Origin: an uncultured bacterium | Lineage (GTDB): Bacteria; Chlamydiota; Chlamydiia; Chlamydiales; JAJFMA01 | Assembly (NCBI GenBank): GCA_964436955.1 | Contig: CAYTFC010000003.1 | Span: forward strand, 4,159-68,158 | Direction of reading: 5' to 3' | DNA: 64,000 nt | In this document: positions 8,228-9,406 of the stretch, one piece after another | Numbering within the stretch: position 1 is the first letter of the stretch | Layout of the letters: the number at the start of each line of letters is the position of its first letter | Notes under the pieces: generated by a model | The model's input: only the letters and a program-made list of their open reading frames with translations | Told to the model about the DNA's origin: nothing | Databases searched by the model: none | Made by a program: the position numbers and the translations under genes

Positions 8228-9406
8228 CTATGTTTTATGATTACGCCATATCCAACCTGATCTGTCCGAGCAGTGTACGTCTGTAACCGAGGCCTTTCCA
8301 TTAAAACCGTCATACGTATATTTACCCCAAAAATAGGGTTTTTGAAGTTCGCAATCTAAATGTTTGTTGGAATATTTAGGCCATCTAGCCCATTCAAAAA
8401 AGCTCTTAAGCTCACCACGTTTCTCGATCGGGAGGTCTCCTGGTTTAACACAGCCTGCCATATCCAGGGCAACTTCTCCGCATGTAGTGAGAGGTGATTG
8501 TTTGTCTAGGTCCGTCTGCATGCTGTTGAATGCATTTGTATAGGCTGCACATGTTTGTGTTTCAGTATTAAAAACACTCTCTACGAAATTACGTCCTGAA
8601 TGCGCAAGTGAGCTTGTTTGCTGAGTGAGTTCTGAACATGCTTTTGGCAGATGGGAGTATTGTGGTGTTTTAGACGTATCAATATTAAAATGACTAACGT
8701 TAAATCCCGCGCCGTTATCTAACTGGCTTTTGGTTCTCGAGGAACTATATTTTAAGTCACACTCTGCGTCCCAACGTGTAAACCCGCTCCAGGTCCCGCC
8801 AACGCGCGTACATTCTTGATCTGCTGCTTTCCATAGCGTTTCAATGCGTTTACTTTCGGCTGAAAAATCACTATAGAGCTTAAATGCGGTACCAGCCACA
8901 GCACAAATACCAAAAATTATTACGCCGGTACTTCGCAAGTTAGCGGGGTTGCTGAAGAATGTTTTAATATCTTTCCATCGTTCAGAAAGGGATTTGGTTG
9001 GTTCAGGTGGGCGATCACCGAAGATACGATAGGCTGCGATTTCCAAAGCTTTGCTGGATTTTTTATCAAAGATGGCAACCATTGGCGACACGAATGCGAT
9101 TTTAAGTGCGCGCCACAACATCCAGATATGTTGGTCAAAAATTTCTCTAAATGTTTTGGCATCCTTCACTGATAGATGCAGCTTTTGAGCTCCTGTACGG
9201 AGAGTCTCCCAGCCTGCAAATAGGGAATGATAAGCCATCCCTGTGATTGCGATGGTTTCAAGAGCTACAGCGGTAAGAGTCGGCGCTGCCAACAAATTAA
9301 AAAAAATGGCACTTGTGAAACTTGTATGGTTTCTCCAATGCGTCCAGTCTTGGACCTTATCCAAAGCTTTTTCGCCTAGACGATGCATCTGTAGAGCAAC
9401 ATTCAT
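8228..9406 (-). CDS. hypothetical membrane protein with Cys-rich C-terminal domain
   Basis: 392-aa ORF; hydrophobic stretch SAIFFNLLAAPTLTAVALETIAITGMAY, second TM GVIIFGICAVAGTAF, 8 Cys in the last ~200 aa; no recognisable family. Confidence 0.6.
   Translation of the reverse strand: MNVALQMHRLGEKALDKVQDWTHWRNHTSFTSAIFFNLLAAPTLTAVALETIAITGMAYHSLFAGWETLRTGAQKLHLSVKDAKTFREIFDQHIWMLWRALKIAFVSPMVAIFDKKSSKALEIAAYRIFGDRPPEPTKSLSERWKDIKTFFSNPANLRSTGVIIFGICAVAGTAFKLYSDFSAESKRIETLWKAADQECTRVGGTWSGFTRWDAECDLKYSSSRTKSQLDNGAGFNVSHFNIDTSKTPQYSHLPKACSELTQQTSSLAHSGRNFVESVFNTETQTCAAYTNAFNSMQTDLDKQSPLTTCGEVALDMAGCVKPGDLPIEKRGELKSFFEWARWPKYSNKHLDCELQKPYFWGKYTYDGFNGKASVTDVHCSDRSGWIWRNHKT

What the first reader, a model, noticed from the sequence alone, without database searches (positions are those of the whole stretch)
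8228..9406. Cys-rich membrane protein sits in the syntenic slot of ompA/MOMP
Established (recalled from memory): C. trachomatis gene order is CT677 frr, CT678 pyrH, CT679 tsf, CT680 rpsB, CT681 ompA, CT682 pbp2. Seen: here the slot between pbp2 and rpsB holds a 392-aa ORF of MOMP-like size but a different build. It has no signal peptide, a ~40-aa hydrophobic block (SAIFFNLLAAPTLTAVALETIAITGMAY), a second TM, and a ~200-aa C-terminal domain with exactly 8 Cys. Inference: it may be a lineage-specific envelope or inclusion-membrane protein that replaced the porin at this locus. An even Cys count would suit a disulfide-crosslinked outer-membrane complex.
Basis: partly seen in the sequence, partly recalled or inferred. 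Interest (0 to 1): 0.55.

Follow-up and report, generated by a model that had tools for sequence, protein, structure and literature searches.

The report
Orphan membrane protein, not a porin replacement
A real but almost unique helical membrane-protein gene with a cysteine-containing tail was inserted next to the cell-wall enzyme gene pbp2 in one environmental chlamydia; it shares a neighbourhood with the Chlamydia porin gene ompA but did not replace it, and its function is unknown.

Summary
A 392-aa ORF (8228..9406, minus strand) lies between pbp2 and tRNA-Gly/rpsB. It has no Sec-type signal peptide, has hydrophobic segments at residues 29-66, 94-114 (weak) and 158-180, and has 8 Cys in the last 212 residues (9 in total).

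It looks like a real gene. Codon usage matches the rest of the window, it has a promoter-like site and a GAGG ribosome-binding site, and it is longer than any ORF in shuffled sequence.

The "replaced the porin" reading is not supported:
- Five other chlamydial MAGs have pbp2 and tRNA-Gly-rpsB directly adjacent, with only 113-148 nt between tRNA-Gly and pbp2, so the slot is empty.
- The closest relative has an IS481-type transposase upstream of pbp2.
- In C. trachomatis, ompA faces the opposite way to this ORF.
- Nothing porin-like was detected: no Pfam, NCBIfam or PDB match.

Searches of billions of proteins found only three distant relatives. They share the N-terminal membrane module and one Cys pair (C199/C216), and they lie in other genomic contexts, beside effector-like genes.

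Best reading: a lineage-restricted helical membrane protein with a disulfide-bonded C-terminal domain on the non-cytoplasmic side, possibly co-transcribed with pbp2. An Inc-like type III secretion substrate is the main rival. Interest is low to moderate.

The parts
8228..9406 (-). 392-aa ORF (P0001): orphan helical membrane protein with a Cys-containing C-terminal domain
   Evidence: Codon-usage score 0.062 against 0.048 +/- 0.017 for the other window genes; off-frame readings score negative. Identical protein on two independent assemblies.
9209..9322 (-). residues 29-66: first hydrophobic domain, with invariant E50, G56 and H60. It carries a 10-aa insertion (NLLAAPTLTA) absent from the three homologues.
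9065..9127 (-). residues 94-114: weakly hydrophobic helix after invariant H93; probably interfacial rather than membrane-spanning
8867..8935 (-). residues 158-180: conserved transmembrane segment
8231..8866 (-). residues 181-392: C-terminal domain with 8 Cys. Only the first ~40 residues are conserved in the family (helix plus hairpin with invariant C199, G204, C216).
9434..9463 (-). sigma-70-like promoter match: TTGACT, 18-nt spacer, TATACT with TG before the -10 (10 of 12)
   Evidence: a consensus match only
9414..9417 (-). GAGG Shine-Dalgarno-like motif 7 nt before the ATG
   Evidence: read from the sequence
8161..8227 (-). 67-nt spacer between the ORF stop and the pbp2 start, with no terminator-like hairpin; co-transcription is possible
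4741..8160 (-). pbp2 (1139 aa, long chlamydial type), immediately downstream on the same strand
9551..9621 (+). tRNA-Gly(tcc), the conserved occupant of the pbp2-rpsB interval in chlamydial relatives
9705..10523 (+). rpsB, first gene of the rpsB-tsf-pyrH-frr run, divergent from the ORF

Best explanation
The ORF is a real, resident gene for a lineage-restricted alpha-helical membrane protein. It was inserted, in this lineage only, between tRNA-Gly and pbp2 (inferred from the empty slot in relatives). It belongs to a tiny orphan family of four known members.

The family is defined by three features: a ~28-aa hydrophilic N-terminus; a conserved membrane module (a first hydrophobic domain with invariant Glu and His, an amphipathic stretch, and a second firm TM about 100 residues later); and, straight after that TM, a conserved helix-hairpin with one invariant Cys pair. 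The rest of the C-terminal domain is free to vary.

Inferred mechanism:
- The first hydrophobic domain acts as a signal-anchor and the two firm TMs hold the protein in the bacterial cytoplasmic membrane.
- The positively charged ~100-aa loop stays cytoplasmic, and the C-terminal domain lies on the non-cytoplasmic (periplasmic/envelope) side, where its 8 Cys form four disulfides.
- It is transcribed from its own sigma-70-like promoter, and read-through probably also feeds pbp2.

It is neither a porin nor a MOMP substitute. The molecular activity of the variable domain is unknown; the effector-like neighbours of the homologues hint at envelope or host-contact biology.
For: Real gene (shown):
- Length beyond any shuffle.
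- Native codon usage in frame only.
- Promoter-like site plus GAGG.
- Homologues with 27-32% identity over the N-terminal ~170-220 residues.

Insertion and lineage restriction (shown for the sampled genomes):
- L004-L008 have pbp2 and tRNA-Gly-rpsB directly adjacent.
- L003 has an IS481-like transposase upstream of pbp2.
- No orthologue appeared among 5.8 billion clusters or 1.84 billion representatives.

Helical membrane build (shown by hydropathy): two firm hydrophobic segments are conserved in all four members, and the middle one is weak.

Non-cytoplasmic, disulfide-bonded C-terminus (inferred):
- Cys counts after the last TM are 8, 4, 6 and 4, all even.
- C199 and C216 are invariant while the surrounding sequence diverges.
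- Cys is enriched 2.6-fold over the window proteome.
- The loops are net positive and the C-terminal domains neutral to acidic.
- In the single-sequence model, the only stretch with pLDDT 62-74 is the helix plus hairpin that carries the Cys pair.

Possible co-transcription with pbp2: a 67-nt gap with no terminator-like site.
Against: - Topology rests on simple hydropathy and charge counts. The charge bias is mild, and no trained predictor was available.
- Four even counts out of four has a chance probability of about 1/16.
- Both structure models are poor (mean pLDDT 36.5 and 38.5), so no fold evidence exists.
- The homologues' neighbours are a Peptidase_M91 effector-family protein, a eukaryote-like RasGEF and pentapeptide-repeat proteins. 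The genome also carries a type III secretion system. Both fit a translocated effector at least as well as an envelope protein.
- There are no expression data.
- The taxonomy of the homologues' contigs is unknown.
- Only six chlamydial loci were available for synteny, and none is a close relative (best PBP2 identity 54%).
Confidence: 0.45

Rival explanations
1. Inc-like type III secretion substrate. The hydrophilic N-terminus is a secretion signal, the hydrophobic domain at 29-66 inserts as a hairpin into the host-derived vacuole membrane, and the variable C-terminal domain meets host or lumenal factors.
For: - No Sec signal, and a long hydrophobic domain starting about 30 residues from the N-terminus.
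- With its 10-aa insertion and central AAPT, the P0001 block reaches 38 aa, which can be read as two helices with a tight turn. Known Incs have helices of 15-32 aa and loops of 3-22 aa (PMC3048545).
- T3SS genes sctJ, sctL, sctR and sctT lie in the same window.
- The family is orphan and fast-evolving with a variable C-terminus.
- Homologues sit beside a Peptidase_M91 effector-family gene and near a eukaryote-like RasGEF.
Against: - In the other three members the first hydrophobic block is only ~27-30 aa, too short for two helices.
- The two firm TMs are about 100 aa apart, beyond the 30-aa loop limit used to define Incs.
- An invariant Cys pair and even Cys counts suit an oxidising compartment better than host cytosol.
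- The neighbour downstream of P0002 has a classical signal peptide, so it is Sec-exported rather than type III.
Confidence: 0.3
2. Accessory factor of PBP2 in peptidoglycan synthesis or division, co-transcribed with pbp2 in the way mreC, mreD or rodZ accompany the elongasome in other bacteria.
For: It lies on the same strand, 67 nt upstream of pbp2, with no terminator-like site. It is a membrane-anchored protein whose C-terminal domain probably faces the periplasm.
Against: - None of five chlamydial relatives has any gene there.
- The three homologues are not next to pbp2.
- There is no match to MreC, MreD, RodZ or any other Pfam or NCBIfam model.
Confidence: 0.1
3. One reading: a cysteine-rich outer-membrane or envelope protein that took over the place and role of the MOMP porin.
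For: It sits in the same interval as ompA in C. trachomatis, is of similar length, and has a Cys-enriched domain.
Against: - No signal peptide, and helical hydrophobic segments instead of a barrel.
- No hit to Pfam, which holds the MOMP family, even at E up to 1.
- Opposite orientation to ompA.
- The slot is empty in five other chlamydial lineages.
- The relatives lie elsewhere in their genomes.
Confidence: 0.03
4. Spurious ORF, or recent mobile-element cargo.
For: No annotated family. GC is slightly below the window mean (43.7% against 45.3 +/- 2.1%). A tRNA gene lies next door, and an IS element occupies the equivalent place in L003.
Against: - Homologues exist.
- Codon usage is native.
- There are no flanking direct or inverted repeats and no tRNA fragment duplication.
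- No integrase or transposase lies nearby in the window.
Confidence: 0.04

Closest known systems
Chlamydiaceae major outer membrane protein (MOMP/OmpA, CT681)
   Same: Lies in the interval between rpsB and pbp2 (PMC3296649). Similar length of about 390 aa. Several Cys.
   Different: No signal peptide, helical hydrophobic segments and no profile match. Transcribed in the opposite direction relative to its neighbours. Not a homologue and not a positional successor.
Chlamydial inclusion membrane (Inc) proteins
   Same: Hydrophilic N-terminus followed by a long hydrophobic domain, lineage-specific and fast-evolving, in a genome with a T3SS. Homologues lie next to effector-like genes.
   Different: The bilobed hairpin is at best marginal in this protein and absent in its three relatives. 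A further TM lies about 100 aa downstream. The Cys pair is conserved. Localisation and secretion are untested.
Cysteine-rich envelope proteins of the chlamydial outer membrane complex (OmcA/OmcB; from general knowledge)
   Same: A Cys-enriched domain that is plausibly disulfide-bonded in the envelope.
   Different: Those proteins have signal peptides or lipoboxes and no helical TM anchor. No sequence similarity was detected.
Elongasome partners encoded beside pbp2 in other bacteria (MreC, MreD, RodZ, RodA; from general knowledge)
   Same: A membrane protein immediately upstream of pbp2 on the same strand.
   Different: No homology. The linkage is not conserved in chlamydial relatives or in the protein's own family.

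Membership tests
Chlamydial MOMP / OmpA porin | Sequence match to the MOMP family profile | tested here: not met
   Pfam-A scan returned 0 families at E up to 1 and NCBIfam returned 0. Scanning the four family members separately gave only scattered single-member hits, best E 0.004.
Chlamydial MOMP / OmpA porin | Cleavable N-terminal signal peptide for Sec export to the outer membrane | tested here: not met
   The first 28 residues are hydrophilic and charged, and the first hydrophobic stretch starts at residue 29. Judged by inspection only; no SignalP was available.
Chlamydial MOMP / OmpA porin | Beta-barrel architecture | tested here: inconclusive
   Hydropathy shows helical-type TM segments of 19 aa or more. 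The AF2 models are too poor to judge the C-terminal fold.
Chlamydial MOMP / OmpA porin | Same position and orientation as ompA between rpsB and pbp2 | tested here: not met
   The position is shared, but the orientation is opposite to ompA as described in PMC3296649. Relatives have an empty slot.
Inc proteins | [quoted passage not shown] | tested here: inconclusive
   P0001 residues 29-66 (38 aa with a central AAPT) can be split only into about 15 + 23 aa. The block is 27-30 aa in the three homologues. The two firm TMs are about 100 aa apart.
Inc proteins | N-terminal type III secretion signal | not testable with these tools
   No predictor or assay was available. T3SS genes are present in the window.
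Inc proteins | Localisation to the inclusion membrane | not testable with these tools
   The organism is uncultured and known only from metagenomes.
PBP2-associated elongasome proteins (MreC/MreD/RodZ) | Profile match, and conserved linkage with pbp2 | tested here: not met
   No Pfam or NCBIfam hit. The gene is absent upstream of pbp2 in L004-L008. Homologues are not linked to pbp2.
Phage or anti-phage defence proteins | Match to PHROGs or PADLOC models | tested here: not met
   0 families for all four members.

The most novel reading that the evidence does not exclude
The pbp2 / tRNA-Gly / rpsB junction may be a recurrent landing site where chlamydial lineages independently install lineage-specific surface or membrane genes: ompA in Chlamydiaceae, this gene here, and an IS element in L003. 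On this reading the ORF founds a new class of helix-anchored, disulfide-bonded envelope (or vacuole-lumen-facing) proteins. It would be co-expressed with PBP2, linking envelope cross-linking or host contact to peptidoglycan synthesis.
Probability: 0.1. Interest if true: 0.55.

Novelty: new member of a known kind. Interest (0 to 1): 0.27.

Why it matters
Environmental chlamydiae lack MOMP, and what builds their envelope and host interface is only partly known. A helix-anchored protein with a disulfide-bonded domain next to pbp2 would be a candidate component.

As it stands, it is one of the many lineage-specific hypothetical membrane proteins of Chlamydiota. The useful results are mostly negative:
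- The ompA slot is not ancestral, because it is empty in five other lineages.
- The shared position is a coincidence of neighbourhood, not a replacement.

The work also defines a four-member orphan family with a conserved membrane module (E50, H60, H93) and a conserved Cys pair.

Tried and rejected
- Pfam, NCBIfam, PHROGs, PADLOC and PDB sequence searches, with the single protein and with the 4-member profile, gave nothing usable.
- One word-indexed search, an exhaustive phmmer over 1.84 billion representatives and two profile iterations stopped at four family members.
- Two metagenome-contig scans, one with the family alignment and one with P0002, found no further loci.
- AlphaFold2 on the full protein with the 4-sequence alignment gave mean pLDDT 36.5, and on the C-terminal domain alone 38.5. 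Both are too poor, so fold search was deliberately not run.
- A search for flanking repeats or a tRNA-fragment duplication that would mark a mobile insertion found only short chance-level matches.
- Aligning the tRNA-Gly-to-next-gene spacer with relatives, to see whether the ancestral pbp2 promoter now drives the ORF, showed no conservation beyond the tRNA end.
- A search for paralogues among the other unassigned ORFs of the window, and for internal repeats in the C-terminal domain, found none.
- An attempt to place the homologues' contigs taxonomically through cluster names returned only "hypothetical protein". PDB searches with their neighbours identified only the eukaryote-like RasGEF.

Full report
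**What is in the sequence**

An ATG-initiated ORF of 392 codons runs on the minus strand from 9406 to 8228. Mononucleotide shuffles of 20 kb of the window never gave a stop-free run above 246 codons, so the ORF is not a chance product.

Its synonymous-codon score against the other 49 ORFs of the window used as genes is 0.062. Those ORFs average 0.048 +/- 0.017, and the two shifted frames and the antisense strand of the ORF score -0.042, -0.029 and 0.011. The gene is therefore read in this frame and is compositionally at home. GC is 43.7% against 45.3 +/- 2.1%.

Upstream there is a promoter-like site, TTGACT, an 18-nt spacer, then TATACT preceded by TG (10 of 12, at 9463..9434 on the minus strand). 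A GAGG lies 7 nt before the ATG. The identical protein is encoded on two independently assembled contigs, one of them from a groundwater metagenome.

**Anatomy of the protein**

- Residues 1-28 are hydrophilic and charged, so there is no Sec-type signal peptide by inspection.
- Residues 29-66 form a long hydrophobic block.
- Residues 94-114 are only weakly hydrophobic.
- Residues 158-180 form a clear transmembrane segment.
- Cys residues are at 168 (inside the last TM) and at 199, 216, 257, 286, 309, 319, 352 and 379. That part is 3.8% Cys against 1.47% for the other window ORFs (p = 0.014).

It needs two additions: the weak middle helix, and a tRNA-Gly(tcc) gene at 9551..9621 between the ORF and rpsB.

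**Neighbourhood and synteny**

Downstream on the same strand, after 67 nt with no terminator-like hairpin, lies a 1139-aa pbp2. On the other side, tRNA-Gly and then rpsB-tsf-pyrH-frr run away on the plus strand.

The recalled C. trachomatis order, CT680 rs2 - CT681 ompA - CT682 pbpB, is confirmed by PMC3296649. That paper also fixes the orientation. The CT680-CT681 spacer follows the 3' end of ompA, and the part of pbpB nearest ompA is its 5' end. So ompA is divergent from pbpB and points towards rs2. The window ORF does the opposite: it runs in tandem with pbp2 and diverges from rpsB.

A PBP2-based scan of one genome per prokaryotic species recovered six chlamydial loci.
- In L004 (Parachlamydiaceae), L005, L006 (Anoxychlamydiales), L007 (Parachlamydiales) and L008 (Chlamydiales), the tRNA-Gly(tcc) gene sits 113-148 nt from the pbp2 start, with no ORF between them. 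rpsB lies just beyond it in the four loci that extend that far.
- In L003, the closest relative at 54% PBP2 identity, the sequence upstream of pbp2 holds an IS481-type transposase (rve and HTH domains).

An empty slot is thus the usual state outside Chlamydiaceae. Both ompA there and this ORF here are lineage-specific occupants, in opposite orientations. No porin was replaced.

I found no footprint of a mobile element around the ORF. There are no meaningful flanking repeats and no duplicated tRNA fragment, and no integrase nearby.

**Relatives**

Pfam, NCBIfam, PHROGs, PADLOC and PDB sequence searches found nothing. A word-indexed search of 5.8 billion protein clusters found only the protein itself.

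An exhaustive phmmer over 1.84 billion cluster representatives found two weak relatives: P0002 (327 aa, E 1.4e-7) and P0003 (261 aa, E 2e-5). Both match residues ~42-218 only. A profile search added P0004 (336 aa), and a further iteration added nothing. Two metagenome-contig scans were empty.

The four proteins share:
- the hydrophilic N-terminus;
- the first hydrophobic block, with invariant A48, E50, A53, G56 and H60;
- a conserved amphipathic stretch ending in invariant H93;
- the late TM;
- directly after it, invariant R187, C199, G204 and C216.

Beyond that, the C-terminal parts are unalignable. P0001 alone has a 10-residue insertion (NLLAAPTLTA) in the first hydrophobic block. In the others the block is only 27-30 residues long.

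The number of Cys after the last TM is 8, 4, 6 and 4, which is even in every member.

None of the relatives is next to pbp2 or rpsB.
- P0002 lies between a membrane-anchored AAA ATPase and a signal-peptide-bearing protein with no Pfam or PDB match. Its contig also encodes a eukaryote-like RasGEF and, in a variant contig, a pentapeptide-repeat protein.
- P0004 is followed by a Peptidase_M91 "effector protein" family member.
- The taxonomy of these contigs could not be established.

**How it most likely works**

Shown: this is a genuine gene for a helical membrane protein of a very small, fast-diverging family, inserted at this locus in this lineage.

Inferred: the two firm hydrophobic segments span the bacterial cytoplasmic membrane. 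The net-positive ~100-residue region between them stays cytoplasmic. The neutral-to-acidic C-terminal domain is on the non-cytoplasmic side, where an invariant Cys pair and even Cys numbers would give intramolecular disulfides.

The only part of the single-sequence AlphaFold model with pLDDT 62-74 is the helix plus hairpin that carries C199 and C216. Otherwise both models are unusable (mean pLDDT 36.5 and 38.5), so I ran no fold search.

Because no terminator-like site separates the ORF from pbp2, its promoter may also feed pbp2. The missing linkage in every relative argues against a dedicated PBP2 partner.

**Main rival**

The main rival is an Inc-like type III substrate. In its favour:
- the window encodes sctJ, sctL, sctR and sctT;
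- the N-terminal layout is Inc-like;
- the homologues have effector-like neighbours.

Against it:
- the family as a whole lacks a bilobed domain as defined in PMC3048545, which requires two helices separated by fewer than 30 residues;
- the firm TMs are about 100 residues apart;
- conserved paired Cys fit an oxidising compartment better than host cytosol.

I put the envelope-facing reading at about 0.45, the Inc-like reading at about 0.3, a PBP2 accessory role at about 0.1, and the porin-replacement reading at about 0.03.

**Comparison with known families and verdict**

It is not a member of the MOMP family: the profile, signal-peptide and orientation tests all failed. It cannot be filed as an Inc: the hydrophobic-domain test was inconclusive, and secretion and localisation are untestable here. 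It is not an MreC/MreD/RodZ-type protein.

It is best described as a new, very rare orphan family within the familiar category of lineage-specific chlamydial membrane proteins. The position shared with ompA is real but appears to reflect two independent insertions into the same intergenic neighbourhood. This leaves a modest possibility that the junction is a recurrent landing site.

Interest is low to moderate. The finding is real and its description accurate, but its most striking interpretation does not hold.

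Noticed in passing
window 32886-37443 (+): Part of a type III secretion cluster: YscJ/FliF-family sctJ (32886-33866), an unassigned 286-aa ORF, FliH-like sctL (34738-35367), FliP-family sctR (35380-36273) and Bac_export_1 sctT (36571-37443). A 486-aa ORF with no family follows (37598-39058).
   Followed up: partly
window 39108-63523: A large sugar and polysaccharide biosynthesis block. It holds a GT9 heptosyltransferase (51464-52534), a PfkB kinase fused to a cytidylyltransferase-like domain (HldE-like, 47942-49447), a SIS-domain protein (GmhA-like, 54454-55050), a HAD hydrolase, a GT2-cyclase fusion, an asparagine synthase, an ABC exporter, epimerases and a CMP-Kdo-type cytidylyltransferase. 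This looks like an ADP-heptose / LPS-core or O-antigen-type pathway, which is notable because Chlamydiaceae LOS is heptose-free (from general knowledge).
   Followed up: no
window 28348-29121 (+) and 27879-28427 (-): Two more unassigned ORFs that overlap by 80 nt on opposite strands. One is a 257-aa protein with 10 Cys (3.9%) and N-terminal hydrophobic segments. The other is a 182-aa protein with CxxC...CxxC at its N-terminus and a C-terminal TM. Neither has a Pfam hit or any similarity to the focal ORF.
   Followed up: partly
window 18703-19626 (+) and 23296-24261 (+): Two soluble ORFs with no family (307 and 321 aa). The first has the lowest codon-usage score in the window (0.008). The second has a strongly acidic N-terminal half.
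   Followed up: no
L003 105-1277 (+): In the closest available relative (54% PBP2 identity), an IS481-type transposase (rve, rve_3 and HTH domains) lies upstream of pbp2, where the window has the focal ORF. rpsB and tRNA-Gly are not on the fetched part of that contig.
   Followed up: partly
window 4741-8160 (-): PBP2 is 1139 aa, about twice the usual length. It matches the pbp2_mrdA model in two separated stretches and scores below the curated cutoff (240.7 against 455 bits). The chlamydial relatives share the long form, with ORFs of 982-1149 aa.
   Followed up: no
L083 11987-12391 (+): Downstream of the P0002 homologue, a called 134-aa gene consists of three near-identical ~40-aa repeats (MGPxDxEAGCHPKGPILTSHFCLLTSISEIEVRSEKTE). 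This is more likely a repeated DNA element than a protein.
   Followed up: no
L083 7800-9803 (+): The gene upstream of P0002 encodes a 667-aa AAA ATPase with a long Gly/Trp/Ala-rich, apparently membrane-embedded N-terminal half. A eukaryote-like RasGEF (Cdc25-homology domain, best PDB matches yeast Cdc25, RasGRF1 and SOS1) lies on the same contig at L083 1053-2693 (-).
   Followed up: partly
window 13809-15402 (+): A Cys-rich 177-aa ORF (9 Cys, 5.1%) overlaps by 11 nt the start of an ATP:guanido phosphotransferase gene with a McsB_C domain. This looks like an mcsA/mcsB protein arginine kinase pair next to the frr-tRNA-kdsC region.
   Followed up: no
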